64,000 bases of DNA from Psammoneis japonica (Eukaryota): assembly GCA_008632985.1 (NCBI GenBank), contig QPGO01000068.1:1-64000 (forward strand), given 5' to 3'. The position numbers and the translations under genes are program-made. The notes under the pieces were generated by a model. The model had not been told where the DNA came from. It saw only the letters and a program-made list of their open reading frames with translations, and did not search any database. The first letter of the stretch is position 1. Each line of letters starts with the position of its first letter. This document shows, piece by piece, positions 26,948 through 64,000 of this stretch.

Positions 26948-27149
26948 TTCTCTTCGTTCTTTTTAAATAGTACGGGGTAAATCTCGCTGATGTGGATGTT
27001 GGAAGGTGAGTGGTAGGGTCGGTGAGATGAGCTTTAAGCTGAGATGATGGGTGATTTTGGAATTTGTGAGATTTCAAAGAAACACAAATATATTCAATGG
27101 CTGATGCCGATCGGACGGGTGGAAAGACGTCGCGCTGGCGTCGCCACGC

Positions 27150-29765
27150 ACGCACGCACGCCGGCTCAAAGCAACCAGTCGGGAAGCATGTTCTTGCTTC
27201 TTGCCGTTTCGTTGCATTGTCTCCTTGAACGCATCAAACGAACGCACAGTCGATGTTCCGGTCGGTGTCACTGTCACTCCATGAGTCGATCTGCCAATCA
27301 ACCTGCTGGTCTCTGCCACTTTCACAACAAAAAACAGAGCTTTTTTTGTTCTGCTGCACAGAAAACAAGTGGGAAAACTGGCAGGGAGACTGGTCAGTTG
27401 ACAGGGAGATTGCCTGGTTGGCTGGTCAGTCCCATCAACAGAAAACAAAAAGCATCAATCAGAGAGATGTTTGCCAAAAAAGGTCCTTTTCCAGTCGTGC
27501 TTGTGCCATGTGTTGCTGCTTTTGAGTGCCACCGTTTGCAACAAAGTCAAACTCCTGGCTTCCCTCTTGGCAAAGAAAAGTTCAACGACAGACCCCAGGA
27601 TCAGGGAGCGCTGCTGACAAGCCTTTGGCAAAGAAACTTTGCAGCAAAAGGAGAGTGCTGAAATCTCAACCTCATGCAAGCATGCAGAGCTGGTTGATTT
27701 GGCACTGGAAGTTGTGAGCATCAGCATCTTTCACAAACGCAGAGGGAGCACTGGCAATGGGTGCAACGGTCTTTGCCACAACATCAACCAAGCTGGGGTG
27801 AGAGCTCCAACTGGAGTGCCATCTGTGTTTCAACCACAAGCATGCCACAGCCAAGCAAAACTTTGGACAGAGCTGTTGAATTTGCTTGACTCTTGTCACT
27901 CCCCATCCATGGTCATGTGGAGTTTGCAGAAGTTGTGCAGTGTCTTTTGCAACAGAAAATCTCACAACCAAGCTGATTTCCCATGCAGCAAACATTGATG
28001 ATGTTGGTTGATGCCAGCCATGGAACAGGAAACAATGTCTCAAAACATGGGCCAACCGTTGATGGCAACATTGACAAAATGGCAAGGAGATTCCTCAGCC
28101 TGCCTTGTGGAATCATCTTGTGTGACAAAGCATCAAACATCAAACCACAGTGCAAATGTGCAAGCCAACAAAGATGTGCTTCCTGCACTTCCAAAAACTC
28201 TGTCAAGAAAAGAGTTTCAGATGCCCCTCATGCAGAGGGTGCCAGTGATGGGTGGGCCACTGCATCCACAGTTGCTTTGCTCATGCTCTGTCCATGGACA
28301 GAGTGGCGATGACATGTCGACTGATGCCACAACCAAACATCCCACACACAGAAAACAACTGACTGCTTGCTCTTCCCCTGGGCATGAAGAGGTGGTGGAG
28401 TCCTGAACCACCAAGTTCCCAAAGCTGTCTGTTTTGAAGAACTCCAAGACTGTGCCTCATCATGCCACCTGCACATGCTGAGTGAACCGGGGAGGTCAAA
28501 GAACATGCCCATGACAAGGGACGAGCAACAGAGCCTGCCCAAGGTTTGTTGATTGTTTGCAAACAATGCACTTTTCAACCTTTGCACAGGGAGAGAGCAG
28601 CTCTTCTGAAGCTCCAGATGAAGGTGGGTGGCTTGGTGGGCACTTTCCCCAAAGTGCGTGGTGCTCCTGCTCAGGACTTTGTTGTTTTGGTCCTTTCACA
28701 AAGAAACATCATGGTCTCAGGAAGAGGAGCTACAATGGCAACTTGAAGCACTGGGTGAGCCTTGCAGGGAAGAACCAGCCTCACAAGAAGGGCAAGCCTT
28801 GCCATGGTGAAGTGGCACAAGGCACAATTTGCGCAATGTGGGCCAGCCAACATGCAGCATGCACCCATGCTGGCCAACTCAGCAAGCTCATGCATTGGCC
28901 TCTGGCATGTGGCACAGTGCAGCACTGTTCACATGCACCTGGGAAGCATGATCCAGAGCCAAGAAGGGTGCGGCTCTTTGATTCAGGTGAGTTCAGAGGA
29001 GTGCTGGGTGCATCGTCAGTGCAGCCTGTCATGATGATGACACATCACTCATGGATGATGCATGACACCCTGATTTTTGCACAATCCACAATGCAAATGG
29101 CAGTGGTTTTGATGTGATGCAAAATCTGAGTGTGTGAACAGGAGCTTGGCAAAAGATTGCCTGTTTGCACGAATCCACTTTTTCTGGAATGAGCTGGTGG
29201 CTGACAACTTTTCACAACAGCAGCACTTCTGCAATGTGTCTGCATTTTTTGTTCCCTGTTGGGTGCACAGTGCGCACAGCAATGTTGCTCTTGTGCAGCG
29301 TGCAAGGTTGAGAATCTGCAAGAACCAAGGTTGCAACATGTTGGTGGGGCCGACACCAACTGCGAAGTGCTGGCCATGAAGAAGTGGGCTCAGCCACTCC
29401 TCTTCAGAACCAGCCAAAACACCACTCCTCCTCTCCCACCCCAACCACCTTGGACCACTGCCACATCCTCTCAAAACCCTTCTGCACTCACTGCTGCCTG
29501 CTCTCATTTGCTCCAACCACCCCAAGGCGGCCTCTTCCCCCTTCTTGCTCTCTCGCCACCTGGAAGTGAGTCTCCTCCTCCTCCCTCTTCGGCACTGCCT
29601 GTCGTGCTGCAACAGCACCTTCCCAGTGGGGCCTCCAAAGCCTCAGCTGCACCATCACCAATGCACTCTAGAGCAGCAAAGCTCTCCCGCTGCACTCAAA
29701 AACTTGATTCCAAACTCTCTGGCTGTCCCATCCGCCACCCAACCCGCACATACAGTCAACCACCC
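27150..29765. mobile_element. TpA/CpG-depleted degenerate insertion between two divergently transcribed genes; family not identified
   Basis: Abrupt compositional switch at both ends; no credible protein; separates the MTase start (26947, -) from the helicase start (29910, +). Confidence 0.5.
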
Positions 29766-29909
29766 CCCGGATAGATGCGTGGCGCGCGACTTCGTCACTA
29801 AAACTTTGGTTTTGAGTGAACAAAAAAACGCAAGTGTGTTTGCCGATGATGATGGACATTCGAACACCCGTCCAAGACTGTATCGTGTAGTTTCGTATTA
29901 TTTGGTTGA

Positions 29910-32900
29910 ATGTCACAAGATAACTTCACGTCCGCGTATAGAAGGACTCATAACGGGGGGCGCAAGTTCATCGGAGGAGCGGCTGCTGCTCGATTGAATG
30001 CCAAGAAGAGAGCCAAGGCCACACGGATATTGCGACCGGACGAGGTTTTAAGGTCAAGGGAAACACTACCAGCGTCCTTGAATGCATTTGAGAGATTTTT
30101 CGCTGGTATCCTTCGGTCTGAACCTGCTGAGTATACAAGGGGGGAAGACAAAGAAGTATGGAGAGTGATGTGCAAACGCCTCGGGCTGCCGGTTCCAGCT
30201 GAACCTCTTCCGGACTCCTACGACAGGCCAAGAGATCATTTTGCAAATCGCGCTTCGTTGGTGATAGAAGAATCGAGACAGGCTGTGGCAGATGGTCTGA
30301 GTTTGCTGGCAAAGCACTATCGAGGTAGGGGGCAGAGACAACGACGAAAAGGTGGAAACAAACCTGATGACGTTTCTTCGTGGCAGACTCTTGTGTCCAT
30401 GCAATTGGTCTTGTCCGGCATGGAGCATAAGAAATCTGGACATTCCATACTAACATATCACAAAGAAAATGGTGCTTTCACGAGGGATGAAATGCTTTCG
30501 CTTCGTCACGGTACAGTTATGGCTTGTCTGAATGAAGAGCTGTCACCGACAATCGAGAATGCTGTCCTTGGAACCGTTGTACCACAAAGTCGGGACGAAA
30601 TGATCGAATCACACTCCTTCTCTGTCATGGTATTCAAGTTAATGAAGAAGACGGTGGACGAGAAATGGAATCTGACTGCCATTACTTCGCTGCTTTCTGA
30701 GCAGAGAAGATTAGAAGCATGTACAACCCAAATGTCCACTCCTGTGCCCTTTTTGTTCCATCTTCTTGGTGGAAAGAAGTCAACACATTTTCGTTTCCAC
30801 GAAGACGATGATGGAATGACACACGCCGTGAAAGCCGAAGATCGGACGTCTCATGACCATGACATGCCAGAGATCATAGACTTGGATTCTACCTTTTGCC
30901 TGCCTCGTTTGAATACAATGCAGGATGAAGCTGCGAATTCTTTTCTTGCATCAAAAGATGAAACGATTACACTTGTTCAAGGTCCACCTGGTACAGGGAA
31001 AACGACGTTGTTAACCTCTGTGATATGCCGCTATATCATGGAGTCCCAAAACCTGGAACACGTCAAACGATGCCTTATGGTATGTGCCCCAACCAACAAA
31101 GCAATAACTGTGCTTTGCAGCAGGTTTTTGGATTCCTTCGTCGACGAATCGTTTCCCTGTAACGCAGTCTTAATAGGAGACGATGACAAACTACTCGAAG
31201 ACGAGCGTGAAAGCACAAGAAATGGTAGAGGATCTCCGTCCAAACTTCGGAGCATCTTTCTCTACACGTACATCGATACCGTCGAATCTGACTACTTGTA
31301 CACAAAGAGAACTTTGATGAGGTGGGATCAGAAGAGCAAGCCTGTCTTGCAGCGACTACTGAAGATTGCACGGCGTCTAAAGAACCGACTGGACAGAACA
31401 ATCTCCGATCCACAAGTACTTGAGAGGGCATCGAGAATCGTAACACTGTTGGGCGACTTGCTAAGTCCAGAAAGGGGCATTCGACGTGTTGAGCTCCTCG
31501 ATGCACTGGACTTTGTCCTCCACGCCATTGCAGGATGGAAGCGTGAGAGCATCTGGCAAGAGATTCTCCAGAATGCGGATGTCATATTTTGCACCCTAGC
31601 CAGTGCGGGGGCTTCTATCCTGAAAAAAGCTGTCAATGACGTCGATGATCTCATCGTCGACGAAGCTGCTGCAGCCACAGAACCAGAAATGTATATTCCT
31701 TTTCAGTATCGTCCTAAGCGATTGCTGGCAGTTGGTGATCCTAAACAGTTACCTGCAACCATAACAAGTCGCATCGCACAGGAGCTTGGACTATCCAAGA
31801 GCCTGCACGAAAGACTTATGTACGGATGCGGACATGATCACATAATGCTCGACACGCAGTATCGAATGTCACCAGCGTTGAGTCAGTTTCCGTCAAAACA
31901 CTTCTACGAAGGGAAATTGATCAATGCTTCGAACGTTGTTTCTGTAAAGTACTCGAACAGTTACAAAATCTTGGGAGCTCCAGTCTACACAGTATACCAG
32001 ATCAATGGCAAAGAAAGGCACGGACGATCAGGATCGATGGAGAACGAGATGGAAGCTCGCGCGGTTGTGCAAATTGTTGAGTGCATGAAACGGGAATCTG
32101 AGAAATGTTCTAGAAACTGGTGTTCAAGTGACCGTCTTCGAATCATAACGTTTTATCAAGCACAGGTGGCACTGATCAAAAGGTTTTTGCGACAGCGAAA
32201 CCTTGGCGACGTTCTTGTAGCAACTGTCGATTCGAGTCAAGGCTGTGAAGCTGATTTCGTCATTGTATCCTTTGTCAGGAGTGAAGGACAGTCTGGAAGG
32301 AACTCAGTGGGTTTCCTGACCGACGAACGGCGACTTAATGTTTCAATCACACGAGCAAAATACCAGATAGTTTGTGTTGGAAATATACATCGGATGTCAG
32401 AACTGCCAGACGGGAGGGCAGACACCGTCAAGAATCTCGCACTGGATGCAATTGAGAGAGAGGCCGTCTTTTCATTTCCTCTCAATGGACTACCAAGTAG
32501 TATGCACGGGATTGAATTGATCAACGGGAACATAAAGGCTGAGCCAGTAGAGAGTACCGCTCCACCCATGGACAACGTCCCAACACGCAAACGACGGATT
32601 GATGCAAATGTCGATTCTCGAGAGCAGAAGCCTAATGCTCGACGTCCTCGATCGATAGAAATGTTCACAGCCAAAAAAGACGATGGTTACCTGGAGAGGA
32701 AAAAGAGAACAATCTCAAGGTCTGGGAGTAGCAGCAGTCAGCAGAGCAGCAGTGATAGTAGCGGTAGCAGTAGTATATCCGGAGACTCCTCCGATTCGGA
32801 TAGTAGCGGTAGCGATGAATCATGCACGGTTGCCTCGAGAGATAAGAGCACCACCTCGGACTCATCACATGGAAAAGTAGTGGAAGAATTGATGCCCCTT

Positions 32901-33041
32901 GATCCTCCCGCAACTGATACAAGTCGGATGCTGGAATTGGAAGACCCCGTCGATGCCAATCAATCTGACTCGAAAGCTAGGCCAGATGCCCCAGGGAATC
33001 ATATGTCGGGCGAACCGCCGTGCGTCCACGCAGGAAACTAG
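29910..33041 (+). CDS. SF1 helicase, Upf1/Sen1(senataxin)-like
   Basis: QGPPGTGKT, CAPTNKA, DEAA, GDPKQL, QYRM, TFYQAQ, TVDSSQGCE, RRLNVSITRAK; Ser-rich tail. Confidence 0.92.
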   Translation: MSQDNFTSAYRRTHNGGRKFIGGAAAARLNAKKRAKATRILRPDEVLRSRETLPASLNAFERFFAGILRSEPAEYTRGEDKEVWRVMCKRLGLPVPAEPLPDSYDRPRDHFANRASLVIEESRQAVADGLSLLAKHYRGRGQRQRRKGGNKPDDVSSWQTLVSMQLVLSGMEHKKSGHSILTYHKENGAFTRDEMLSLRHGTVMACLNEELSPTIENAVLGTVVPQSRDEMIESHSFSVMVFKLMKKTVDEKWNLTAITSLLSEQRRLEACTTQMSTPVPFLFHLLGGKKSTHFRFHEDDDGMTHAVKAEDRTSHDHDMPEIIDLDSTFCLPRLNTMQDEAANSFLASKDETITLVQGPPGTGKTTLLTSVICRYIMESQNLEHVKRCLMVCAPTNKAITVLCSRFLDSFVDESFPCNAVLIGDDDKLLEDERESTRNGRGSPSKLRSIFLYTYIDTVESDYLYTKRTLMRWDQKSKPVLQRLLKIARRLKNRLDRTISDPQVLERASRIVTLLGDLLSPERGIRRVELLDALDFVLHAIAGWKRESIWQEILQNADVIFCTLASAGASILKKAVNDVDDLIVDEAAAATEPEMYIPFQYRPKRLLAVGDPKQLPATITSRIAQELGLSKSLHERLMYGCGHDHIMLDTQYRMSPALSQFPSKHFYEGKLINASNVVSVKYSNSYKILGAPVYTVYQINGKERHGRSGSMENEMEARAVVQIVECMKRESEKCSRNWCSSDRLRIITFYQAQVALIKRFLRQRNLGDVLVATVDSSQGCEADFVIVSFVRSEGQSGRNSVGFLTDERRLNVSITRAKYQIVCVGNIHRMSELPDGRADTVKNLALDAIEREAVFSFPLNGLPSSMHGIELINGNIKAEPVESTAPPMDNVPTRKRRIDANVDSREQKPNARRPRSIEMFTAKKDDGYLERKKRTISRSGSSSSQQSSSDSSGSSSISGDSSDSDSSGSDESCTVASRDKSTTSDSSHGKVVEELMPLDPPATDTSRMLELEDPVDANQSDSKARPDAPGNHMSGEPPCVHAGN

Positions 33042-34659
33042 CTGTCTCTCCTCATCACCGGACGGGATTGAAAAAATGGGGACGACGAACCCGAGGGCTC
33101 CCATCCGACCTTCAGAAGTGATTGTACTATCTTCTTCTGAGAATAGCGAAGCGGAGGCGTAGCCGCTCGTGATGGATGCCCGAGCTGTTCGGTAGAGCTA
33201 TGCCACAGTAATGGCGAAGATGTGCATTGATCTACGCAGCAAAGACAACTTAGGATGCAGGTACGGTACAATAAGACTACTCTAGTTGTTTGCATGTAAG
33301 TTCCTGTACCCGCGCTTCTGGTCTACTCCCCTCGTCTTTACACGTCTCCTCTGGAGCATCCCTTTTCACTCTTCAAGAGACTCTCTAGAGGGTTGCCGGG
33401 ATTTGTCTTTGATGTTTCGCGGGCCTTGTCAACTGACGGGGTCGTCCCTGCCTGCGGCTGTTCAGGAAGCTCAGGAAGGCCACTTCCCGCGCCATTCGAT
33501 GTTCGCGCCATGTTCGTGCTTGTTTTTGGCTGGAGACTGCCTGACCATGCAAAGCTCTTCTGATGCAACACCATCGACTTTCTCGTGGTAAAAAAATCCT
33601 TGCGACTGTTGACGTGCTGAGGTCAAATGAAGACTGGCAAGTTGAACACTGGAGCAAAATGGGCAGGAAAAACTTTGCAGAGTCTTCTGCATCTGCATCA
33701 TCAAGTGACTCTGTGATCTGCAAACAGCAGGACAAGAAGCAGGCACACAAATGTGCTGCAACACAGCAGAATGACTGAGTCCCTGCCACTCTCACTCTCC
33801 ATTGTTGAGATTCCACAAGTCCTGATGAATCTTGTCCATTCCAGGTGCAGAGTGTTGATGATCGTGAAGAATGGGAAGGTTCCTCAGATGACATTGCTGC
33901 CAACATTGATGTCCTGAACTCTCACCTCAACCCTCTCATCACAGTCCTCCATGCAAAGCAGTGCAGAAGCAAGTTGTTGACTGCAATGAGCAAAAGCATG
34001 AACACACACGGAACTCCCCCAAACATCCATGAAATGGCCATGATCATGGTCATGCTGGAAACCGGCATTGCAAAAGACAAGGCAGATTGTCCAGAAAGGT
34101 TTGAGATTGTTGGTGATGCCAGCGCTGGGGCAAGGCAGTGGAGGACAACCAAGGAAGCAAAAGGGCAGCCATGGAGGATGGTTGACAAAGGGACTGGGAA
34201 GGCACCATTGGCTGGTGGAGTGGGAGAAGCGTGCATGTGAGCACTGCATGAAAATCATCGTGCCAACAACAAAGCACACCCAGACTGCTTCAGCTTCCAA
34301 GAAGCTCTTGCCATGCCAGCAAGCAAAAAGACAGGGAAGCAAAAAGCTGTCATTTTGCCACTGGAAACTTTCAACTTGGTGGCAAACATCCCTGAAACCA
34401 ACATGGAGGAAGTTTGGCAGCTTTGTCTTGTGAGTGCAAAAACAGTGTGCTCAGTTTGCAAACTGTGCGCAATGAAAGTGTTGAAAAACAATGAAGACAA
34501 CATGTCATTTGTCATGACAGCACTGCTTCACAAGAAAACATGCTTTCAAACCCCACAAGCATCACATGACAAGTTGTGCAACATTGCAAAATGTGTTTTG
34601 ACACATGCAAAGTTTTTGCCCTCCTTTGTCACAAGAAAGCAGGGAGCCAGAGTCACACG

Positions 34660-35395
34660 ACTTTGTCCCACAATCTCTGGTCAACATCTGATGTCGCTGC
34701 ATGACAACATTGAGCTGCTGGGTTTGCAAGTCCCAAGCTTCTGACCAGATGAACCAGGTTGTTCTCATCCATCATGTGCTGAGTGAACACATGCTCGCCA
34801 CTGTGCCCTTGCTGAGAGGCGCAGACACATTTTCATTTTAGAGGAACACAGCTCATTTCTCCAAGTTCTCCTGCTCTTTTTCTTGGGTGCTTCTTGTTGA
34901 AATGTCTCTGGATTTTTCATTCTTTTTCCATCAATGCTTGCCAACCGTGCAAGCAACGGCCTTTCTTGCCCTCTTTTTGTGCTTGGGCAACAGCACCAAC
35001 TGTTCTCCATGGCAAATGGTGTCTTTTTGCACCAGAGGACAAAATGTTGGGATTGTTCCCATGCTGCAGCTTGAAGTGACAGACAGCACCACAAAAAGAA
35101 ATGAGAGACTGACAAATCGGGGGGGAAGGCATCAATCTTGGAAGCCTTTTCTCGTTTCTGTTTTTGCTCTGTTTGGCATGGGTGGAGGTTTTTGTTGTTG
35201 TTGGGTGCAAATCTTGCTGTTGCGATTGCATTGAGGCAGGGGATGTGGTGATGACCAGGTGTGTTGTGATGGTGGAGATGGATGTGAGAGATTTACTAGA
35301 GAGAGTGGGAAGAGAAGAAAAACACTCTCATGTGTGAACAGCTGATGGTGCCGATCGGACGGGAGGAAAGACGCGCGCCGGCGTCGCCACGCCGG
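34660..35395 (-). pseudogene. Hypermutated partial duplicate of the methyltransferase 5' end and promoter (26459-27163)
   Basis: Colinear similarity, e.g. TTGAGCTGCTGGGTTT[A/G]CAAGTCCCAAGCTTCT and GTTCTCCTGCTCTTTTTCTTGGGTGCTTCTTGTTGAAA; the peptide MKNPETFQQEAPKKKSRRT is still readable. Confidence 0.93.
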
Positions 35396-35503
35396 TTTAC
35401 CATGTGACGTCGATGTGACATGACCAATAAGTAAAAGTTTTCACGATCAACGCACAAATAAAATAAGGCTCACAGGAACTGCTGGCGGGACGTCGCATTG
35501 AAC

Positions 35504-36307: not shown

Positions 36308-37189
36308 CAAAGAATATGCACAGAGTAATGGAACGTATCCGTAGGGACACGGAGGGAAGGGCTCAACGTCGCAACCTACCGACAAGTCCGTGTGTATACA
36401 GAATCCAAAATGAATACCATGAATAGAACTAAGCTAAAGTACAAGTAGGAGTGCGATGAACGGATCGACAGAGTAGTGCGTGTAGTAGCATCAACCCAGC
36501 TTGAGTGGTGGCTGTCAATCCAGGATACAACAGTTTGCAAATTAGGTTTCGACTCTTGGATCATGGTGTGCTTGTCTCTAGAACGGGTGAGCGATTTCCT
36601 GCCGCGCAGTGCTTCTCCGGCCGATTGAAACCCAAACAATGTTGTGTTTCTGGAAAGTCCTCACATTGGCATTCAAGCAATGTTGATTCAAGGCTTGTGT
36701 GGCTCAAAACGGCAATCAAGTCTTCATTGCCAGGAGCTTGCAAGTGACCAATCAGGAATGTGCCACTTCTGCGGCATTGTCTCAGTTTCAGGCTGTTTTC
36801 TTCAAGCAAGTTTTGGTGCTGTCATCATCTCTCCACTCAGGTGGCTCCAAACAGACACTGCTGGTCCCAAAATGTGGAAGAAGACAGCCTTGAGAGGCTA
36901 AAACCAATTGGTTGTTGGACACAACACAGCTGCTGTGGTGCATGCAAAACACTGCCACACACAATCCTCATTGTCAAAGCAGCCACACAAGTCAACACAA
37001 TTTGTCAAAACACAGCATGTTTGCTTTGGCTGCACAGGAACAGCCAACTGTCTGCAACATCATGTGCATTGTGAGAAATTGATTGCTGGTGCCAACTCAA
37101 TGGGGGGTCTCCATGGTGGCCAAGTGGCTGGCTGGGAATGTCTGCTGCTGCTGCCAATGGCAACAAAGTCAGCTTCCTTCCACAGGCAA

Positions 37190-37191
<2 letters not shown>

Positions 37192-37287
<96 letters not shown>
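37192..37287. repeat. (TG)n microsatellite running into an assembly gap
   Basis: Pure TG dinucleotide run of about 96 bp. Confidence 0.98.
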
Positions 37288-37447
37288 NNNNNNNNNNNNN
37301 NNNNNNNNNNNNNNNNNNNNNNNNNNNNNNNNNNNNNNNNNNNNNNNNNNNNNNNNNNNNNNNNNNNNNNNNNNNNNNNNNNNNNNNNNNNNNNNNNNNN
37401 NNNNNNNNNNNNNNNNNNNNNNNNNNNNNNNNNNNNNNNNNNNNNNN
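37288..37447. other. Assembly gap (160 N)
   Basis: Run of N. Confidence 1.
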
Positions 37448-39349: not shown

Positions 39350-39570
39350 ATTGCCAAAGCTTCACCTGCAAAGAAGAGAAAAGAGCTTGCAACAGATCAG
39401 AGCATTGCACATGCTTTGTTTTTGAGCGGGCTTGTCTTGACCACAACAGCGCTTCTGCTCACCTTTGCACACAACCATGTCTCTTTCATGTTTTGCACCA
39501 GTTTGCCAAAGCATTGCCTGCAAAGAAGAGAAAAGAGCATGCAACAGATGAGAGCATTGCATTGTTTTGA
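39350..39570. repeat. Short direct repeat pair (about 70 bp, spacing about 150 bp)
   Basis: TTGCCAAAGC..CCTGCAAAGAAGAGAAAAGAGC.TGCAACAGAT.AGAGCATTGCA occurs twice. Confidence 0.85.
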
Positions 39571-40069: not shown

Positions 40070-40172
40070 TCAATGTGTTCTTGTTAAGATGCAAATTTTC
40101 ACAGTCTTGCTGCACAGTTTTCATCACATCAATGTGTTCTTGTTAAGATGCAAATTTTCACAGTCTTGCTGT
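40070..40172. repeat. Tandem duplication with a 59-bp period
   Basis: TCAATGTGTTCTTGTTAAGATGCAAATTTTCACAGTCTTGCTG at 40070 and 40129. Confidence 0.9.
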
Positions 40173-53000: not shown

Positions 53001-53049
53001 CCGAGTGCTGTGTCAACTGTGTGCACATTTTCTTGCTACAACTCTCTTA

Positions 53050-54290: not shown

Positions 54291-55013
54291 CTTGATCTTC
54301 ACACGGCAACAATGAGAGCAGTGTTGCTGTTCAACAGTGCAGCCGTTGTCTGGGTCATGTTGAGACAGCCAGCCACTCCATTTTTCTCTGTGACATTGCA
54401 CAAATTGTTGTCAGCAACATTGAAATTTGAAAATGTGTTTGTGTGTGACAATGAGTGGTCCAACTTGCTTTTTGACATGGCTGTCATTGCGTTCCAATGG
54501 AGACAATGTCCTTTGTTTTGACAGCAAATAAAAAAGAACAACATTTGCTGTAAATGCCAAATAAAAAATCAAAATGCAGACACGTCACACCCACAAGAAT
54601 CATCCAAATCTGGAAGACAATGTGGTGTTTGCCATTTTCCCGCCATTTTTTGCGTGTTGTTCTTCTTTTCCCTTCTCATCCACAAGACAAGGACGACGAG
54701 TGTGAGTCTTGATGAAGGCCCTGTCAACATTGACCAGAGAACTGTGAGGCAACGGCATCAGCATGCAGACTTGGCTGGTCGCTGGCAGCTTGATCACAAA
54801 TGAAACAACTGGCTTTCAATGCCTGAGAAGACTCAGTGCTCACCCAAGTTGCGGGTTGTCCCTGTTGAAGCAATTGGGGACAATGTTTTGGTTTATGAAC
54901 AATGTCCAGGAGCAGCAGAAGCGCAAGAAAAGGCCCCATTTGTTTGGACCACACAGGACAGAAGGAAGTGTTGGTCAGATTTGTTTCTAAAACAGGACAT
55001 GCGTCTGGATCTG

Positions 55014-58000
55014 TCATTCACTCACAGTGATCACCCAACTCTTTCTTGCAAACATGATGAATTTGATCCTTTCAGAATTGGCAAAGTCATTGCGGTGCAC
55101 GTGAAGCAGTGCGGTGCAAGCACCTTCTGTTGCTTTTGTTCTGATGTCTTCTTCGGAAACTCCAAGACAAGCTTCTTCCTGATTGGAAGGCTTTCCCAAC
55201 CACCATTCTCGTTGTTCTTGGGTCACAAGGTTGCTTGCAAAGAATGTGCTCGCACAGCTCTTTGCAGCATCCTTGTCCATTGTGCATGTGTCGAACACAG
55301 CCAACAATTTCTTCCATTGTTTGACAACCTGGAAGAAGGTTGCAAGAGCAAAGGGAATCACCATGTCCCCCCCTTCTTCGTTTGTGGAGAGCAAGGCCCG
55401 AAGATCAATTAGATTTTGGAAAAATTGAGTCGTCCCAAAATGACTGTCATGCCACTCTCCATCTGGCATCCAGCAGCAGTCCAACATGATTTGGTCGAAC
55501 CCATGATTGTCAAAATCAACAAGTTTCTCAAACTGCTGCTTGACTCTCTCGACAAAATCTCTTGCTCTCACATTGCAATTTAAACGCAGATCAGGATGTC
55601 TGTCTTGGAGAGAAACTGTCAGAACGACATTTGTGATTGTTTTGTTAGATTCCTCAAATGCCATTGCGCGGGCCTCGTCTCGCCTGTGTTGGTCGGACGA
55701 CACTGAGGCCACCCCCTTCTCACAGCACAATTCTTGAGAAGACAGTTGCCTTGCATTGAGCGGACGGGTCATCCCCAACCACAGCACATTGTGTGTTTCC
55801 CCGTCAGTTTCGTCACTTGCGAAACAATCTCCTAAGTTGCCATGGTCCTCTTCACCCTCGGAGCAATGTGCAACTTGGTTGTGCTCATCGTCAACAGGCT
55901 CTTCGCTTTTGTCCTCTTCACACATGTAAGTTGTGGGAAGTTTGCTTGTTTTCTCGTCAATTGACTCCTCCTTGCAATCGTCACTTTTGTTCATTGCGAA
56001 TGACAACAAATCACCGGCGGCCTTCTTCCTGTCAGAACAAGAAATCAATGTGACAATGTTGGCACAATCAGACAAAAAACAAATGTGATTGCCATGAAAA
56101 AGTAACCTCTCTTCACCGTTCCAGTTCAGCTCGAACTTCATCAATCGTCACGAGTGGGACTGGCTCCTGTTCACACCTTCCAAACCGCTTGATCATTGAT
56201 TGCCCATCAGAGAACAAGAGCAACAGATGCTGTTCGCAACAAAAGACATTGCAGATTCCCATCTTTTCACGAGCTGCACTCAGGTCACACATCAAAGACT
56301 CTGGGCCATTCTTTCCACAGTCTTCCAAATCAAAATCACCCTCCATCCGTTCCAAGAGCAAATCGCGCTCCTCCACCGGGACCTTCATTTCCTCCACTTG
56401 CTTTGCCGCTCCCAACTTGGCCACCGGATGGACAAGATTGCAAAGGTCAGGGTGAGGATGGATCCCCACGCCACACAGCATCAACATCTGCACAGAGTTC
56501 ATGCATCTGAACTCTCCACAATCAGCACCTGTGTGATCCCATGTTTGGACCACGGTTTGAAACATGTCCTCGATCGCCTTGTGGTCAAACATTGGCTTGC
56601 CAACATTGTCGTTGATTCAGTCAATGAGAACAACCAGTCCGCCAACAAGCAAATCCATCAAACCGTTGAGTTTCGTCCCGCACTCTGCCACATGAACCTC
56701 CTCGAAATTGAGTCCCGGGCTCTGCATGCGTCGGTTGTTGCGATCCCCCGCAATGCTGCCGAACAGCCTTGCAGCTTCTCTGAAGCAATGAAGGACACGA
56801 TCGCCAGCCACGAAAGGACGCTTCACAGCATCTGTGTTGCACAACAAGTGGCAAAAATGGGAGAATCCGGTTTGATGCCCAGCCACAACGGCGCAACAAA
56901 AGCAATCACATGCACCAACCTCATCGAGGTTGTCGATGATTGCCAAACAACCGCACGATAAATCAAAGTCCTTCACGATGGCAAACGGAAGACATTTCCT
57001 CGGCATGACAACAACGGGATGCTTGGCTGTGTCGGACGGAAGATTTGGCTTGCCAATTTCCTCTTCCACCCACACAGAGTGAGGGTCAAGGAAAAAATCT
57101 TTGATGTTTCTGTGGGTTGGCTTGCCCGACGGAGGACAATGAGGGCCACGGCATCTCATCATTTCTGCAGCACATGACAGATCAAGTTTTGCGAAATGAC
57201 CATGCACATGCGATCGGAACTCGGCATGCCCATGCACTGAACTGACACAGTTTCCAGCATTGCCTTTGGATGCAGTGATGACCTTCAACAACCAAGAGCG
57301 ACCAACAGCATCTCGCAGTGACGAGCAAAGAGCACCAGTCTTGGTGTGCCCATCCATGTCACAATCCTCTTTGTCAATGTGCAGCTCGGTGTCCGAATTG
57401 ATGGATTTTTTGCCAGACAACGAGATGCACTTAACTTGAATTTCCACGCCTTCCCTTCTAATGTGCTTGGCTCCAACCATCTTGTGGAGCTCAGCCGCGA
57501 AAAGACTGTCACGGTGCGGGTCATGGAAGGAATGCATTTCTTTCAATGCAACAAGATTAATTTCATCCTCGCAGAGTTGCGCGGCGTCCAAGATTGAGGC
57601 TGTCATCACCTGCACATCCTTTGGAAGCTTCTCTCACTTGTCCCTGCCAAAGATGGCACCAGGCTTGTGAGCAGGTCCCACTTCAGCTAACTCACCGTCT
57701 GCGACTTTGCAACTCTGGCCACAATGACCAAAACAGATCCGACAGCGCAACTTGCATTCTGGTCCATCCCTTTTTTCGTTCGGCTTGCCATGTTCCAACA
57801 CTGCACGGAGCATCGACGACACACTGAATTGCAATCCAAAAAAGTGTTTCTGATGCATCTTGTCCATGTGTCGCAAATGAGTGACCGCGTCGGAAAAATG
57901 AGAGGTTGACTGGGTCGGGTGAGCAATCGCAACCATCGATTCTTGCGTCGGATCATTGGGAGCTGTGCCGTTTTCAAATCCATGCATGAACTTGCAGAGG

Positions 58001-58278
58001 TGATTCACCAAGTGGAAATCGGAGATGCTGTGGAACAACTGGTGCTTGACACAGTTCCCCTCAAAGGAACCGGAAATGGGGGTTTCCTCAAAGACGACAA
58101 AGTGAGAATGTTGTGACTTCACCTCACCCGGAATCGCAAACGGAGATGGTTCAGGAAACACTTTCACAAGCTCTTCTTTTGTGAAATTGTCTGGCGGAGG
58201 AGGAGGCGACTGATGAGTTGCACCGAGGGTCGGCCACTTTGTTTGGGAATGTTCAAATTGTTCCTTGAGAGTCGGCAC
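55014..58278 (-). pseudogene. Large degenerate gene: possible HxD dioxygenase-like region and C-terminal methyltransferase-like region
   Basis: 58278-56113 is one frame with TGA at 57634 and 56617; the overlapping ORF 56144-55014 follows in another frame; motifs ELHIDKED and VLWLGM...FDQIMLDCCWMP...GGDMVIP. Confidence 0.5.
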
Positions 58279-58400
58279 ATCTTGGAGAATCAGCGATTTG
58301 TTCTGAGAAACATCAGAAGGTTCACCATCTTTGGGGTTTTTGAGATGGGCTTGAGGAGCAAAGGGAGGCGGCTAAAGAGGTGGCAAGAAGAACAGAAGAA

Positions 58401-59551
58401 TCAGAGATGAGAAGAGGAGCACAAACAATCAATCAAACAATGTGGTGGATTTGCGCCATTTGGATTTTTTCGTTTCCGAGCATTTTTCGTAACGGATGGA
58501 ACTGCATTGCCGATTTCTTTCTTCTTGCACTTAGTGGCAAAGTCACGAAGCCTGGCTTTCCACACAGCCTCAAAACGATCCCTTGTGGCCTTGCTTTTGC
58601 CGGAATCGTCAGCAGCAGAAACCACATGATCAATTTTCACACATCTTAAAAGAGTCTCATCGACATGTGTTGCGTGCATTTGTTCTCGCTCGACATTGAG
58701 CATCGCCAGTCGCATGGGCTGTCCCCAAGAATGTTTGTGTTGGCGGAACAACGACTTTACGAATTCAGGGAAGGACACAGGGCATTTGTCTTTGGTTGTC
58801 TCACAGTGACCAAGAGCCAGGAAATTCTCCAAAAAGTTGATGTAAGTTGATGTCTCGTCACATTCGCCGAACAGGGAGCACAGCCAACAATTGCAATCAC
58901 CATTCCTTTCAGGTGCGCACGGTGGAATCTTGTCACGAAGAATCAAAAAACCAATGTGAAGGCATTGCGCGCAGTGCAAAACCTTCCCTTCAAAACTTCT
59001 CAGCTCAATGTGCTTGACAAGTGGCTCTCCCTTTGGGTCGCACAATCCGGGATCATGGAGAAGCTTGCACAACATGGAAATCTTTGCCATCATGTTGGTT
59101 GCAATGTCTGTTGATTTTGCCTTGTCGCCGATGACTTTCACATCCTCTGCTTTGGGAGCACGGCGACACTCCAACGCATGAGGATGTTTGGCGCCTTGAC
59201 TGGAACAACTCCATCCTTTTGCGGAAAGAAAGTGCAGCAAGCTCTTGTGCCCAAGTTCCTTTGCAACAATGCGGTTCACAGCCATCAGTTCTGCAAAAAA
59301 ATGAGGTCTGCTCTTCGACTTTTGCCACACATGGGCAAGCGTGATCCAATTTGGAGAGGGATCACAAGTGGAATCGCGGTGAAACTGAACCTTGGATTTC
59401 ACCGTCTCGATTGTCGCTTTGACACGGCTCCGCTCGTTGCTGTTGATCACTCCAAAACCGTTGGCAAAGAGAGATTCAAGTGCGGCCTCCTCGAGGCAGG
59501 AATCATTGTTGTCTTGCAACAGAGAGGCAACCGACAGGTCACGCGGCGCCA
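58401..59551 (-). pseudogene. Degenerate hypothetical gene (about 380 codons from MAPRDL)
   Basis: Long protein-like ORF, nearly Tyr-free, co-oriented with the neighbouring degenerate genes. Confidence 0.45.
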
Positions 59552-59978
59552 TGGTTGCTGTTCCAACACCAAAAAATCTGGTTTCTGTAGAAATGCACCA
59601 GAGTGGTGTGTGGGAGAAGTTGCATGCGCGCCTGGCGCAATTTGGAGTTTCAAACACAAAAACCTGCCAGATGCGCGCGCAACTTCTCCCAGGGAAATCC
59701 TGCGTGAGATTGTGCCGGGAAAGGGCAATGCAGAGTGTAGAATTGATGGAAGAAAACATTGATTGGAACAGCATCAGGAGAAAGGATGCATGTGCTGGAA
59801 AACAACATGGATTTCTACACACGCATTGAGGCACGTGAAAAACACGTGGGTGCCTTCAAGTGATGCATGCGAACAATCACAAAGAAACATCCGGAAATGG
59901 AGATGGCACAGAGAGAAGTCAGAAACATGGATCCAAAACAAAGTGACACAACAGAAAAAACAACAACAACAACAAGAG

Positions 59979-60380
59979 ATGAAGGCGACGGCGACGGGAT
60001 CGATGAAGAAGAAGGATTCAGATGGAAAGACGCCGGAGACGGTGAAAACAGGCGGTGCCAAGACGAGGAAGGAAGAGAAAAACAGGACGGGCAAAATGAA
60101 GAAAGACAAAAAGAAGCCGACAACACGACGTCAAGAGGGGAGCAGCGATGCGATTCAGCGTTTCGAGGGACCTCTTCCTCTCGATGATGTTCACCCAAAT
60201 GCAAGAAATGCAGTGTGGCTTTTTTGGAACGGTGACGAGGAAACATCCAACGCGGCAGCGGCACATTTGAAATTCTTGCAAGAGAGCAGACAAGACATGT
60301 GGAATGAAGAGGACGATGCGGACGACTGGGCAAATTGGAGCACAGTTGTTGACCAAACAATTGGTGCACACTTCACATGA
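59979..60380 (+). pseudogene. Small degenerate hypothetical gene, divergent from the minus-strand cluster
   Basis: Lys-rich then Trp/acidic segment (AVWLFWNGDEE...DDWANW); no TpA seen. Confidence 0.3.
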
Positions 60381-63117
60381 TGAAAATTTCATTGCATGCA
60401 ATTGCAATGTTTGGCTTGTCGTCAAAGATCGTCAGTTGTTGTGAAAAAGGCAGAGCATGAAAATTAAAAAACATCTGTGTTCAAACATGAAGAACAGCAG
60501 GAGATTGATGATTGACCAAATGACAAAGACCATCATGTGCAGACAAGCAGATTTTACAATGCAGCAATGCATTTTTGTCATGTGTGCAGACATTGCCATG
60601 TCGTGCACTCTGATGTTCTTGGACACCCAGACAATTGGGCATGTCTTGTGTGACTTGACAGAAGTTCTTGGGTCCTGCCCATCTTCCACTCAGAACAAAC
60701 CTTGCATGAAACCCACATCCACATGACACAGTTGAGATGATGATCCATGAAGAACACCAAATTCAGGCCCACAACAGCAGCGCACATTCTTCAAGCAACA
60801 AAGAGCAAGCGCACACTTGACAGGAGCACCAGCACACATGAGGCCTTGGGAGCAGAAAAGAACCTGGCAACTTTGTGGGTGGCATGTGCAATGACCAGAT
60901 GACTGTTGGGCATGAGATGCATCAGCACACAGCAGCCACAGAAGGACAGCCATGGGGTTCATTAACAGGCACGAAGCTGTTAAAGTCATCACGCCAATGG
61001 GTCTGGGAAGGGCAGGAGCAGGTGTGGTCCATTGCAGCAGTCTTCCATCCTGGTGACATGCAATGCTTTCTCAATCAGGCCAGCTTGGGTCAGCAGAAAT
61101 TGGCCATCACTTGGACAGTTTTTGGATTTTGATGCCAGCAAAAAGTTGCCAACCTCACTGCCCTTGTCTCTCACAGATCACAGACATCATGGCCATGCTT
61201 CTTGTTGGAGACACCCAACTTGGGAGCTTCTGAGCTGGAGATTTTGCTGGCAAAAGCAGCACCCTTGTGTGGCACACACAACACACCCTTCTTAAAATGG
61301 AAACAAGGGTCAACATTGGACCAGACCCACAGCCAAGCTCAAGCAATCCATTGCACAGCTTCTCACAAAAGCACTTGGGTGCTGGTTGTTGGAGTCCACA
61401 CCACAAGACTTTCAGAAGCTTTGGTGGCAACAAAATGTGGAGGCCAGGCTTGTGGCAGTCAACCCATTGGCTGCATTGCCAAGCTTGAGGAGCCATCCTT
61501 CAGAGGGACTGACAGAGGCCAGGCAAAGTTGTTGACATCACAAAAGATGGCCCTCAAAGCACCAGCATCACAAACAGCTGCATGTGGTGCTGTGGTCATG
61601 TGCAAGACTCAACAAGGCTTGGGAGTTGGCAGCAAGGCCCTCATGCAAGAGTTGACCCACAGGAACCAGTGCAGAGAGGTGGGGGGTTGGATGAGCAGCA
61701 GTTCTGTCTACAGCCTCTCAAAAGAGGTGTTCAGGGACCTGCCAGATGCCAGCATCAACCAAGCAAAATTGGTGAACAGCTCACCAAAGCAGAGGCAGCC
61801 AGGTGACAACTCTTCAACTGGACATCACAACAGTGGACTTGCCTGTTTCTTGGCACAGTGGGTGGCCAAGGAGAAATCATCTGTTTTGTTTCCATCAAAG
61901 AAGGGGATGGTGTCCTTGAGAAAAAAGGTGAGCTGCACAATGACACGCAGACTGACAGGGCTTGGCATCCCAGAGCTGCTAGAGCTTCTTGCCAAGGCAA
62001 TGGTCAGAATTGCACATCACAAACTTGGCAAGTGCTTGGCAGCCCTCAATCTTTTTGCACTCACACAAACTGCTGCGAGGGTCTGAGATCCTTTCTGTTG
62101 CCCTTGCAAACCCTTGCAAAGTCTGTGAAATGGCATCTTACAAAAATGTCAGAAATGATGTGACTTTCTGATTTTTGACATCTCTGAGATTGCCCCTGGT
62201 TTTTCATTCATTGTGGTGAGAGCTGTGAGATGTGCAGATTCTTGCTGCAATTTTTTTCACCTCCACAGCAAAAGGCATGTTCTCACAAGCACTGGCAACA
62301 GCACTGACAGAAAATGCAAATGTTGGCCATGCTCATGCAAACTCGCCATGTTTTTTTTTGTCATTGTCTGCCAGAGGTTCTCAATGCATTGGTGGCAAGG
62401 AGACCAAGGGGGGGAGAGGCCAGAAGTTGTTGCTGTTTTGTGCTGGCACATCATTGATGGCATTGAACAAAGAGAATCATCACACAAGCACTCTCATGCA
62501 AGGTGCGCTCTTTGGGGCCTGTGCAACATGCTGAGTGCTTCCTTGCTCACAGGAGAATTTGCAGCTGTGTTTAGAGTGCCTCCCCACATGCCATGGAACA
62601 TCTGCAAACTGCATTGCACCCACATTTTAAGCCCACCAACAGAGTGAAAAGGTGAAAATTGGTTGCATGGGTGCTGCACAGCATTGTTTTTTGGGTGCTC
62701 TCATGTTTTCTTTTGGCGCGCATCACATGTGGTGTGTAGAGGGCACTTTGTTTGCTTTTTCAAAGCTTTTGTTGAAGCCAATGTTGGCACTGTTTTTGAT
62801 TTCCTGCTGCAGAGCCAGAGCTGCAATGCATGGCATGTCAACTTTTAAGAACCAAGAGCAGCCTTCCTGATTTGTGTTTGGGGTGCTCACACGGCACAGG
62901 AGCTCACATGCCAGGTGGCAACAAATGCAAGAATCCAATGTTGCTCATCAACCACAAGGGTTTTCCAGCCATCAATGTCCAAGTGCTTGAAAATGCAGCC
63001 CCAAACTGTCAAATGTTGGGCACCCAAGCACTGCAAGAAATGCTTGCCATGGCATTTCTTGGGAGCTGTGCTTGACAGCCAAAAGACAGGAGAATGAAAT
63101 CTGAGTCAAGTGTTGTG

Positions 63118-63720
63118 TCACAGAGGGGCACTGCTGCCCCTCATTGGATGAGGCTGATGATGGCTGTGGCAGGGCAAATTGGGTTGGGTCAGGCACTGGG
63201 CTTGCAGAGCATGAGCCTCACAAGGATGCCTTTGGCAGCTGTTGTCTGAACAAAGGCTGTCACAGCCAATTTCATTGAGTGCATGTGGGGCAATGTCCAC
63301 CAGAAGTTTGGATGTGTTTGTGTGCCTCCATTGTGCAGGTGCCCCATGGTGATTCAAGCACTTGTTCATCTGAACAATTTTGGGACACTGGCATTGTTGA
63401 TGACAATGAGCCACACCCCTCCAGTCAACACTGGACCAGATCAGTGCCAACAGGGTGAGCCACTTCTGCAGCAATGTCTTGTTCTTGCATGAATTGAGAA
63501 GGGAGCTGGTGGGATTTGGCAGGATCTCTGCACGAAGTCTTGCTTTTGTGCAGTGAAAAGAGTGCTCAATCCCAGAACACAAACCCTTGGCACAACAACT
63601 CATGGTGGCTGCCAAAATGAAATGATCAGAAGGTGTGTTTGCTTGGACAAGGCCTCCATTTGCTTCAACAACTTTGCCAAAAAAAAGGAACTTGGCACAC
63701 AGCTGTGGTGTTGCGCGCAC
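63118..63720 (-). mobile_element. Possible remnant of a non-LTR retrotransposon C-terminus
   Basis: IWSSVDW...KIVQMNKCLNH...C..C pattern weakly resembles the post-RT region of LINEs; heavily mutated. Confidence 0.25.
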
Positions 63721-64000
63721 ATGTCAATGCCAACTTAGATCTGCTTCTTGAGTTTTGAGGTGCAAAAACAACAGCAGTGATGTTGGAAAGCACTGGTTTT
63801 GCTTGTGGATGACAATGTTGTTGCCACTCTTGTCTCTGTTGCAAAACATGCAGTGCTTCTGGAGCAAACCAGGGTGGCCTTTTGGCAAAGGTGCTGGAGG
63901 GCTCTTTGTAGAGCAGAGGGTTGCTGAGAATCTCAATGACTCAAGAATCCTCTGCTGGGCTCCAGCTCTTGGAAGTGCTGAAGGGTTGCTTGTCAATGTG

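What the first reader, a model, noticed from the sequence alone, without database searches (positions are those of the whole stretch)
27150..64000. Candidate new genome-defence system: repeat-targeted TpA->TpG/CpA hypermutation ('reverse RIP') alongside CpG decay
Seen: three blocks (27.15-29.75, 33.35-35.39 and 36.6-64 kb) of repeats and dead genes are nearly devoid of TpA on both strands and saturated with TG/CA. Their ORFs almost lack Tyr, are rich in Cys/His (TAY->TGY/CAY) and nearly all end in TGA, while adjacent intact genes are normal. Known: 5mC deamination explains CG->TG/CA; fungal RIP makes CpA->TpA and so raises TpA; neither explains TpA loss. Inference: a second, A:T->G:C mutagenic activity acts on silenced or repeated DNA. 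Options are DNA adenine deamination in a TA context, a mutagenic modified A or T, or mismatch repair or an error-prone polymerase coupled to heterochromatin. I know of no description of this in diatoms but cannot search the literature.
Basis: partly seen in the sequence, partly recalled or inferred. Interest (0 to 1): 0.92.

Follow-up and report, generated by a model that had tools for sequence, protein, structure and literature searches.

The report
TpA-erasing hypermutation of silent diatom DNA
Three stretches of non-genic DNA in a diatom chromosome have had almost every TA step rewritten to TG or CA while neighbouring genes are untouched, the same rare mutational signature recently reported in one unrelated alga and probably a genome-defence process.

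Summary
In 27.1-29.7, 33.4-35.3 and 36.6-64 kb, TpA is at 0.01-0.07 of expectation, against 0.59 in the flanking genes. The borders are sharp to within tens of bases. TG and CA rise by the amount that TA and CG fall.

Three polarised comparisons show that TA was lost by transitions:
- An intact paralogue 7.6 kb away has 21 TA; the copy keeps none, and 18 are now TG or CA.
- A protein relative has 19 aligned Tyr; 14 are Cys or His in the window.
- A repeat copy seen in read contigs has TA or CG at 12 of 13 listed places where the window has TG or CA.

Contigs built from raw reads bridge gene, block and gene, so this is not an assembly artefact.

TpA loss is separable from CpG decay: a 7.5-kb sub-block keeps its CpG but has no TA. 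Surviving TAs sit in YTAR contexts, mostly TTAA, and RTAY sites are gone.

A young intact Copia element and the intact paralogue are spared, so repetition alone is not the trigger.

The signature is in print. A 2026 preprint measured TpA-only A:T>G:C hypermutation of integrated viruses in Bigelowiella natans. I found no report for diatoms. The mechanism (DNA adenine deamination?) is inferred, not shown.

The parts
27092..29668 (.). TpA-free block 1. It has one TA, at 28731. CpG depletion starts about 200 bp inside the left edge.
   Evidence: A read contig at depth 64 bridges 26660-34893 with 5 differences.
33387..35293 (.). TpA-free block 2, with TA only at 33589 and 34839. CpG stays dense for the first ~230 bp, so the TA-free footprint is wider than the CpG-poor one.
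36580..64000 (.). TpA-free block 3, with 119 TA in 27.2 kb (o/e 0.07). It runs off the window end and contains a 160-N gap at 37288-37447.
34535..35444 (-). Hypermutated paralogous copy of 26340-27197, which is the 5' part and upstream region of the gene at 24860-26947. The last mutated site is 35323, and CpGs are kept from 35352 onwards.
   Evidence: Identity is 74% in plain letters and 87% in purine/pyrimidine letters.
24860..26947 (-). Intact paralogue: a 695-aa ORF with a C-terminal SAM-methyltransferase domain (PF10672) and normal TpA and CpG. It serves as the ancestral-state reference.
40553..42743 (.). 185-bp satellite of 11.7 units, about 82% alike. Five sites are split TG/CA among units, against 0-2 in each of seven control classes.
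52750..60500 (.). Sub-block with no TpA (o/e 0.03-0.12) but near-normal CpG (8-17 per 250 bp; o/e 0.55-0.79). It carries long minus-strand ORFs.
58404..59855 (-). 484-aa ORF of an uncharacterised family. Of 19 Tyr in its 61%-identical relative P0122, the window has Cys at 10, His at 4, Phe at 3, Tyr at 1 and Ile at 1.
   Evidence: No Pfam, PDB-sequence or fold match.
8828..14670 (+). Counter-example: an intact Copia-type LTR retrotransposon that is not TpA-depleted (TA o/e 0.64, CG 1.17). It has 337-bp LTRs with 2 differences, TG..CA ends, an ATTATA target duplication, and gag, integrase and RT ORFs.
29910..33041 (+). Intact 1043-aa superfamily-1 helicase gene lying between blocks 1 and 2, with normal composition. 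Its best hits are diatom proteins.

Best explanation
The blocks are non-genic DNA that has undergone a localised, DNA-level, near-saturating mutation of TpA to TpG or CpA. Their content is a satellite, dispersed repeats, a duplicated gene fragment with its promoter, and a gene of unknown family.

Shown:
- TA is lost by transitions on both strands.
- The process stops within tens of bases of expressed genes.
- It is separable from CpG decay.
- It has a flank preference: RTAY sites are erased and YTAR sites, above all TTAA, survive.
- It spares a young intact retrotransposon and the functional paralogue.

Inferred:
- A chromatin- or silencing-directed enzyme deaminates adenine to hypoxanthine in T-A-Y context on either strand. 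Hypoxanthine pairs with C, so replication fixes A>G.
- This is the mechanism proposed, also without proof, for the identical signature in Bigelowiella natans (an ADAT2/TadA-like deaminase).
- CpG>TpG/CpA in the same blocks is most simply ordinary 5-methylcytosine deamination accumulating more slowly.
For: 1. Conservation of the pyrimidine-purine class. TA+CG+TG+CA is 23.76% in normal DNA and 23.74, 23.41 and 24.02% in blocks 1, 2 and 3. TA and CG are lost only to TG and CA.

2. Paralogue comparison.
- Of 21 TA in the intact copy, none is kept; 10 are TG, 8 CA and 3 other.
- Of 33 CG, 3 are kept and 24 are TG or CA.
- TG is kept at 22 of 31 sites and CA at 29 of 39.
- Per base, transitions hit 12 of 27 A and 10 of 28 T inside TA, against 18 of 146 and 18 of 187 elsewhere.

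3. Protein relative. 14 of 19 aligned Tyr are Cys or His in the window ORF. All 43 relatives have Tyr at 1.2-5.2%, against 0.2% here.

4. Repeat copies in read contigs. At 44619-44737, 12 of 13 listed differences restore TA (8) or CG (4) where the window has TG or CA. These are among 40 listed of 498 differing places.

5. Not an assembly error. An 8234-base read-derived contig at depth 64 runs gene, block 1, helicase gene, block 2 with 5 differences. It comes from what may be the source sample.

6. Separable from CpG decay. 53-60.4 kb has CpG o/e 0.55-0.79 with TA 0.03-0.12. At the left edge of all three blocks the TA-free zone starts 40-230 bp before the CpG-poor zone.

7. Context. The 122 residual TA were compared with 1290 TA in normal DNA.
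- Relative survival is TTAA 7.6, CTAA/TTAG 2.7 and CTAG 2.1.
- It is ATAT 0, ATAG/CTAT 0, ATAC/GTAT 0.05 and GTAC 0.1.
- Chi-square p = 8e-37.

8. No general A:T>G:C drift. AA and TT are not depleted.

9. The same signature was measured de novo in B. natans: 230 of 231 single-nucleotide mutations in the two viral regions were A>G or T>C, and the paper states that these all fall on TpA.

10. The T-A-Y preference fits what I recall of TadA, whose natural target is U-A-C-G (recalled, not tested).
Against: - No enzyme, inosine, methylation or chromatin data exist for this organism, and no genome was held. The deaminase step is pure inference.
- Polarity rests on three comparisons of modest size: 21 TA, 19 Tyr and 13 places.
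- The paralogue pair is old, with about 10% transversions, so it gives no rate.
- All read data come from one sample that may be the assembly's own source.
- No strand-clustered runs were found, although a processive single-strand deaminase might leave them. TG/CA runs tests gave z from -1.38 to +1.41 in the blocks and -1.68 in the polarised series.
- A young multi-copy-type Copia element is untouched, so targeting rules are unknown.
- No viral or transposon domain was found in the blocks (0 of 71 ORFs), so 'foreign DNA' is not demonstrated.
Confidence: 0.55

Rival explanations
1. The cause is error-prone or biased repair coupled to methylated heterochromatin, not a dedicated deaminase. One version: T:G mismatches from 5mC deamination recruit patch repair filled in by a polymerase-eta-like enzyme that makes A>G errors at WA. 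Another version: a T:G glycosylase removes the correct T opposite a misinserted G in a TpG/TpA context.
For: - The blocks are also CpG-depleted, which fits methylation.
- TA and CG outcomes both end as TG or CA.
- The polymerase-eta WA hotspot and the TDG context order are recalled knowledge, not tested here.
Against: - The 53-60.4 kb sub-block has lost TA but kept CpG, so TA loss does not follow 5mC deamination.
- AA is not depleted, although WA includes AA (other A transitions 18 of 146, the same as background).
- About 93-99% removal of one dinucleotide, with a 4-base context rule, is hard to reach through rare replication or repair errors.
Confidence: 0.15
2. Thymine at TpA is enzymatically modified in silent chromatin, for example by TET/JBP-type oxidation to 5-hydroxymethyl- or 5-formyluracil. 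The modified base mispairs with G and gives T>C.
For: - The TpA palindrome is hit on both strands equally (TG 2915, CA 3038).
- From recall: base J and dinoflagellate 5hmU favour T followed by A, and 5-formyluracil is mutagenic towards T>C.
Against: - No evidence for such bases in diatoms came up in the searches.
- The sequence data cannot tell A>G on one strand from T>C on the other.
Confidence: 0.12
3. The editing happens on RNA (ADAR-like A-to-I on double-stranded transcripts) and is fixed by reverse transcription and reinsertion.
For: ADAR favours U before the edited A, as stated in the preprint's discussion.
Against: - The targets include a satellite and a gene fragment together with its upstream, non-coding promoter region.
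- Both strands are equally affected.
- AA context is spared.
- The borders are those of chromosomal blocks, not of transcripts.
Confidence: 0.03
4. The signal is an artefact: systematic base-calling or polishing error at modified bases, or chimeric assembly.
For: All reads come from one sample that may be the assembly's source. The library type is not on record.
Against: - Read-derived contigs at about 60-fold depth reproduce the blocks and bridge into normal genes with 5 differences in 8234 bases.
- Unresolved strand-discordant calls would fragment such contigs.
- The Tyr>Cys/His pattern against an independent metagenomic protein and the paralogue pattern are what real mutation predicts.
Confidence: 0.03
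5. The blocks are foreign DNA that was TpA-poor before it arrived.
For: None found.
Against: - Block 2 contains a copy of a host gene whose intact twin has normal TpA.
- Relatives and other copies carry TA.
- The pyrimidine-purine total equals that of host DNA.
Confidence: 0.02

Closest known systems
TpA hypermutation of integrated giant-virus and virophage DNA in Bigelowiella natans (Mettrop et al., bioRxiv 10.64898/2026.01.13.699255). I read the abstract, Results, Discussion and a term search.
   Same: - Only TpA is hit, giving TpG or CpA depending on strand.
- The process is confined to particular regions and the rest of the genome is normal.
- It leaves a long-term footprint of TpA-poor, CpA+TpG-rich clusters, mostly unannotated.
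- It is proposed as a genome defence working by DNA adenine deamination.
   Different: - The organism here is a diatom (stramenopile), not a rhizarian.
- Depletion here is near-saturating: o/e 0.01-0.07, against Rho 0.45 for their NCLDV region.
- It co-occurs with CpG decay, and their text does not mention CpG.
- The targets seen here are a satellite, dispersed repeats and a host gene fragment, with no recognisable viral gene.
- A flank preference (RTAY over YTAR) is seen here.
- No de novo rate is available here.
Fungal repeat-induced point mutation (RIP)
   Same: - Transition-only hypermutation of selected DNA.
- Sharp borders.
- It destroys coding capacity and acts on both strands.
   Different: - The polarity is opposite. 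RIP makes CpA>TpA and raises TpA; here TpA is erased.
- RIP mutates both copies of a duplication; here the intact paralogue and a young LTR element are spared.
- No link to meiosis is known here.
CpG decay by 5-methylcytosine deamination in methylated transposons
   Same: CG>TG/CA is present in most of the blocks: 24 of 33 CG sites in the paralogue test.
   Different: It cannot remove TpA. A 7.5-kb sub-block has lost TpA without losing CpG.
ADAT2/ADAT3 and TadA polynucleotide adenine deaminases with reported DNA activity. For amphioxus BjADAT2 (PMC10354150) I saw only the search listing and the start of the abstract. It is also described in the preprint.
   Same: The chemistry would give A>G. 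The natural anticodon-loop target has U before the A (recalled).
   Different: No such gene could be looked for, because no genome was held. No chromatin targeting is known for these enzymes.

Membership tests
TpA-specific localised hypermutation (Bigelowiella natans type) | Changes are A:T>G:C transitions at TpA, giving TpG or CpA | tested here: met
   Of 21 TA in the intact paralogue, 18 are TG or CA in the copy. 14 of 19 Tyr are Cys or His. 8 TA are restored in another copy. The pyrimidine-purine total is conserved.
TpA-specific localised hypermutation (Bigelowiella natans type) | Confined to discrete regions while flanking genes keep normal composition | tested here: met
   TA o/e is 0.01-0.07 in the blocks and 0.56-0.66 in the genes between them. 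Borders are resolved to tens of bases.
TpA-specific localised hypermutation (Bigelowiella natans type) | Targets are integrated viral or other foreign, silent DNA | tested here: inconclusive
   None of 71 ORFs has a Pfam domain. There are no viral-contig relatives. One target is a host gene fragment. Part of block 3 is repeated 5-60 fold.
TpA-specific localised hypermutation (Bigelowiella natans type) | Elevated de novo rate measured in mutation-accumulation lines | not testable with these tools
   There is only an indirect hint. All 9 listed assembly-versus-contig differences in 26.0-38.7 kb lie in the blocks, and 8 of 9 lie at a TG/CA step. Two further differences are not listed, so their place is unknown.
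Fungal RIP | C>T at CpA, so that TpA rises and CpA/TpG fall | tested here: not met
   TpA falls to o/e 0.01-0.07 and TG and CA rise to 1.7-1.9.
Fungal RIP | Both copies of a duplicated sequence are mutated | tested here: not met
   The intact paralogue (24860-26947) and both LTRs of the Copia element have normal TpA.
5mC-driven CpG decay | CG>TG/CA alone accounts for the TG/CA excess | tested here: not met
   In block 3, TA loss (4.09 to 0.44%) is as large as CG loss (5.67 to 1.88%). The sub-block 52.75-60.5 kb loses TA only.
ADAR-type RNA hyperediting | A>G on the transcribed strand, with 5' neighbour U about equal to A | tested here: not met
   TG and CA gains are equal. A outside TA mutates at background rate (18 of 146). 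An untranscribed upstream region and a satellite are affected.
Polymerase-eta WA>WG signature | Both TA and AA are hotspots, with some transversions at A | tested here: not met
   AA o/e is 1.2-1.3 in the blocks. Transitions at A outside TA are at background. The definition of the motif is recalled.

The most novel reading that the evidence does not exclude
Diatoms run a chromatin-directed DNA adenine-editing defence that rewrites every accessible R-T-A-Y site in silenced DNA to completion. It would be homologous to the process just seen in a chlorarachniophyte. That would make it an ancient genome-immunity arm across the SAR supergroup (stramenopiles, alveolates, rhizarians), with polarity opposite to fungal RIP and independent of cytosine methylation.
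Probability: 0.35. Interest if true: 0.9.

Novelty: new member of a known kind. Interest (0 to 1): 0.75.

Why it matters
- A natural process that edits A:T to G:C in DNA at a defined motif is known, as far as my searches show, from a single 2026 preprint in one alga.
- Finding its end-state in a diatom suggests the process is widespread. The end-state is tens of kilobases with TpA erased, beside untouched genes.
- It gives a simple genome-wide marker: TpA o/e near 0 with TG and CA near 1.8.
- It adds two mechanistic handles: independence from CpG decay and an RTAY-over-YTAR site preference.
- Some diatoms are genetically tractable, so the responsible enzyme could be identified. A natural double-strand or chromatin-guided DNA adenine deaminase would interest both genome-defence biology and base-editing technology.
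- It also warns annotators that Tyr-free, Cys/His-rich, TGA-terminated ORFs in such genomes are mutational debris.

Tried and rejected
Whole genome
- Not held. No genome-wide dinucleotide survey, transposon consensus or deaminase search was possible.

Content of the blocks
- Pfam scan of 71 block ORFs of 120 aa or more: no family apart from one sub-threshold chance hit (the first attempt failed on a coordinate slip).
- ORF 56620-57633(-): no homologue.
- P0122 in the word-indexed database: only itself, unnamed, on a 2.4-kb contig.
- Family profile against PDB sequences and Pfam: nothing.
- AlphaFold model of P0122 (pLDDT 76): no Foldseek match at E<=0.001, and best VIA-align Z 4.2, which is not meaningful.

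Survey of other organisms
- Metagenome scans with the 484-aa ORF and with the Copia RT: no confirmed locus.
- Viral-contig scans: none.
- Whether other diatoms show the signature is therefore untested.

Structure of the blocks
- A reciprocal-duplication idea (block 1 as a mutated twin of the gene at 35.4-36.6 kb) was rejected. The alignment score was 262 against a null of 200-244.
- Terminal repeats around the 52.75-60.5 kb sub-block were not convincing: 149.5 against a null of up to 132.
- A purine/pyrimidine-collapsed self-comparison found no further repeats in the window.

Strand clustering
- Not significant.
- TA and CG neighbours share the same outcome in 14 of 22 cases, permutation p = 0.21.

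Expression
- No RNA holder was listed by the run search.
- Run X2 behaves like a transcriptome: it covers only genes and shows a GT..AG joint at 35812/35927. Its contigs do not cover blocks 1 and 2. Neither point is usable as evidence of silence.

Literature and earlier findings
- Searches for a diatom report found none.
- PMC9998398 (diatom DNA methyltransferases, mentions RIP) was seen only as a listing.
- Earlier findings of this scan held nothing on this genome or this signature in eukaryotes.
Full report
**What is there**

The window is nuclear DNA of a raphid pennate diatom. The intact helicase gene at 29910-33041 has its best hits (56-58% identity) in Nitzschia and other Bacillariaceae-like sources.

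From 1 to 27.1 kb, composition is ordinary: TpA o/e 0.59 and CpG 1.01. From 27.1 kb on, three blocks have almost no TpA:
- 27092-29668: 1 TA
- 33387-35293: 2 TA
- 36580-64000: 119 TA in 27.2 kb, o/e 0.07

The genes between the blocks are normal, with TA o/e 0.56 and 0.66. With 4.09% TA expected, 122 in 31.4 kb is far beyond chance.

| Stop-to-stop ORFs of 120 aa or more | Number | Tyr | Cys | His | Ending in TGA |
|---|---|---|---|---|---|
| In the blocks | 63 | 0.1% | 5.7% | 5.2% | 60 of 63 |
| In 1-27150 | 37 | 2.6% | 2.3% | 2.8% | 22 of 37 |

**Is it mutation, and in which direction?**

A simple bookkeeping result already says yes. The four pyrimidine-purine steps TA, CG, TG and CA together make up 23.76% of normal DNA. 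They make up 23.74, 23.41 and 24.02% of blocks 1, 2 and 3. What TA and CG lose, TG and CA gain, as expected if only transitions within these steps occurred.

Three polarised comparisons give the direction.

1. Intact paralogue.
- Block 2 contains a copy (34535-35444) of the 5' part and upstream region of the intact gene at 24860-26947.
- Of 21 TA in the intact copy, none survives in the block copy; 10 are TG and 8 are CA.
- Of 33 CG, 3 survive and 24 are TG or CA.
- TG and CA themselves are mostly kept (22 of 31 and 29 of 39).
- Per base, transitions hit 44% of A and 36% of T inside TA. They hit 10-12% of other A and T.

2. Protein relative.
- The 484-aa ORF at 58404-59855(-) has a 61%-identical relative, P0122.
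- Of that protein's 19 aligned Tyr, the window has Cys at 10, His at 4, Phe at 3, Tyr at 1 and Ile at 1.
- All 43 relatives have normal Tyr content.

3. Another repeat copy.
- Contigs built from public reads hold other copies of the block-3 repeats.
- In 44619-44737, one abundant copy has TA (8 places) or CG (4 places) at 12 of the 13 listed places where the window has TG or CA.
- Only 40 of 498 differing places were listed.

The refuter 'consensus is itself TpA-poor' therefore fails.

**Is it an artefact?**

- A read-derived contig of 8234 bases at depth 64 runs from the normal gene through block 1, the helicase gene and into block 2 with 5 differences.
- The run may be the assembly's own source, so this excludes assembler or polisher errors but is not independent replication.
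- Strand-discordant misreading of a modified base would break such contigs.
- The homologue-based evidence does not depend on the reads.

**Anatomy of the process**

Both strands are hit equally (TG 2915, CA 3038 in block 3).

TpA loss is separable from CpG loss:
- The sub-block at about 52.75-60.5 kb keeps CpG (o/e 0.55-0.79) but has TpA at 0.03-0.12.
- At the left edge of each block the TA-free zone begins 40-230 bp before CpG thins out.

The right border of block 2 lies between 35323 and 35352, inside the duplicated segment.

The 122 surviving TA are not a random sample when compared with 1290 TA in normal DNA (chi-square p = 8e-37):

| Context | Relative survival |
|---|---|
| TTAA | 7.6 |
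| CTAA/TTAG | 2.7 |
| CTAG | 2.1 |
| GTAC | 0.1 |
| ATAC/GTAT | 0.05 |
| ATAT | 0 |
| ATAG/CTAT | 0 |

The best reading is that T-A followed by a pyrimidine is the favoured target on either strand.

I found no strand-clustered runs.

Differences between assembly and read contigs in the single-copy part also point to the blocks:
- All 9 listed differences lie in the blocks, and 8 of 9 lie at TG/CA steps.
- Three are CA against TA, and one is CA against TG.
- Two of the 11 counted differences are not listed, so their place is unknown.
- This is a hint, not proof, that the process is recent or ongoing.

**What is targeted?**

Not simply repeats.
- Part of block 3 (38.7-46 kb) is repeated 5-60 fold by contig depth, and it includes a 185-bp satellite.
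- Blocks 1 and 2 are single copy at 31-mer level.
- A complete young Copia element at 8828-14670 has normal TpA. It has LTRs with 2 differences in 337 bases, a target-site duplication and gag-integrase-RT ORFs.
- The functional paralogue of the mutated gene fragment is also spared.
- The two LTR differences are TA/TG and CA/CG. Five of eight differences between tandem tRNA-Sec units are of the same kinds. This is anecdotal.
- No viral or transposon domain was found in the blocks.

I infer that silencing or chromatin state decides the target, and that sequence repetition and foreign origin do not. This could not be tested.

**Mechanism**

Shown: a DNA-level, region-confined TA>TG/CA transition process with a 4-base context rule, independent of CpG decay.

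Inferred as most likely: enzymatic deamination of adenine to hypoxanthine in a T-A-Y context, fixed as G at replication.
- This is the hypothesis offered for the same signature in Bigelowiella natans, where an ADAT2-like candidate was named.
- It fits my recollection that TadA and ADAT act on an A preceded by U.

Rivals are thymine oxidation at TpA, biased or error-prone repair in methylated chromatin, RNA editing followed by reverse transcription, artefact, and TpA-poor foreign DNA.
- The repair model is weakened because TA loss precedes CpG loss and AA is untouched.
- The RNA model is weakened by the nature of the targets and by strand symmetry.

**Comparison with what is known**

The closest known case is the 2026 preprint by Mettrop and colleagues.
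- In 15 mutation-accumulation lines of B. natans, 231 of 302 nuclear single-nucleotide mutations fell in one integrated giant-virus region and one virophage region.
- 230 of those were A>G or T>C, all at TpA, at about 6e-7 per site per generation.
- The genome holds 124 clusters of TpA-poor, CpA+TpG-rich windows.

The diatom window shows the same signature carried to saturation, in a different SAR lineage, on non-viral DNA, together with CpG decay. The preprint's text does not mention diatoms or CpG.

Fungal RIP is the functional analogue but fails two defining features here: the polarity, and mutation of both copies.

My seven searches for a diatom report found none. The preprint's supplements were not readable here.

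**Verdict**

- The core inference is supported.
- 'Repeat-targeted' and 'undescribed' need correction.
- I file it as a new member of a very recently described kind, of high interest because it suggests the process is widespread and gives new handles on its specificity.

Noticed in passing
window 19246-20038: An RNase MRP RNA gene (19246-19514) is followed directly by three tandem selenocysteine tRNA genes (19541-19627, 19746-19832, 19952-20038) in 205-bp units. The spacers differ by, among others, TATACG against TGTGCA.
   Followed up: partly
window 8828-14670: Complete, apparently young Copia-type LTR retrotransposon. It has 337-bp LTRs with 2 differences, an ATTATA target duplication, and ORFs of 1220 and 537 aa with zinc knuckle, integrase-like and RVT_2 domains. 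It has normal TpA and CpG.
   Followed up: yes
window 3439-6330: A 963-aa ORF joins glutaredoxin, DUF4395, a SLAC1-type anion channel and a hemerythrin domain in one protein. This is an unusual fusion.
   Followed up: no
window 37192-37447: A perfect (TG)48 microsatellite abuts the 160-N assembly gap. Read contigs stop there.
   Followed up: no
window 58404-59855 and proteins P0122-P0164: Protein family of about 43 detectable members with no Pfam domain, no PDB sequence match and no clear fold match. The model has pLDDT 76 and is mostly helical. Nearly invariant columns include R113, G114, W115, Y130 and R131 (P0122 numbering).
   Followed up: partly
window 26001-38700: All 9 listed differences between the assembly and read-derived contigs fall inside the TpA-free blocks, and none in the ~6 kb of normal sequence (Fisher p = 0.004 on listed places). 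Two further differences are unlisted.
   Followed up: partly
window 38839-39159: Cluster of 11 of the 122 residual TA in 320 bp of A+T-rich sequence, nearly all in TTAA/TTAT-type contexts. It lies at the point where contig depth jumps from single copy to about 30-fold.
   Followed up: partly
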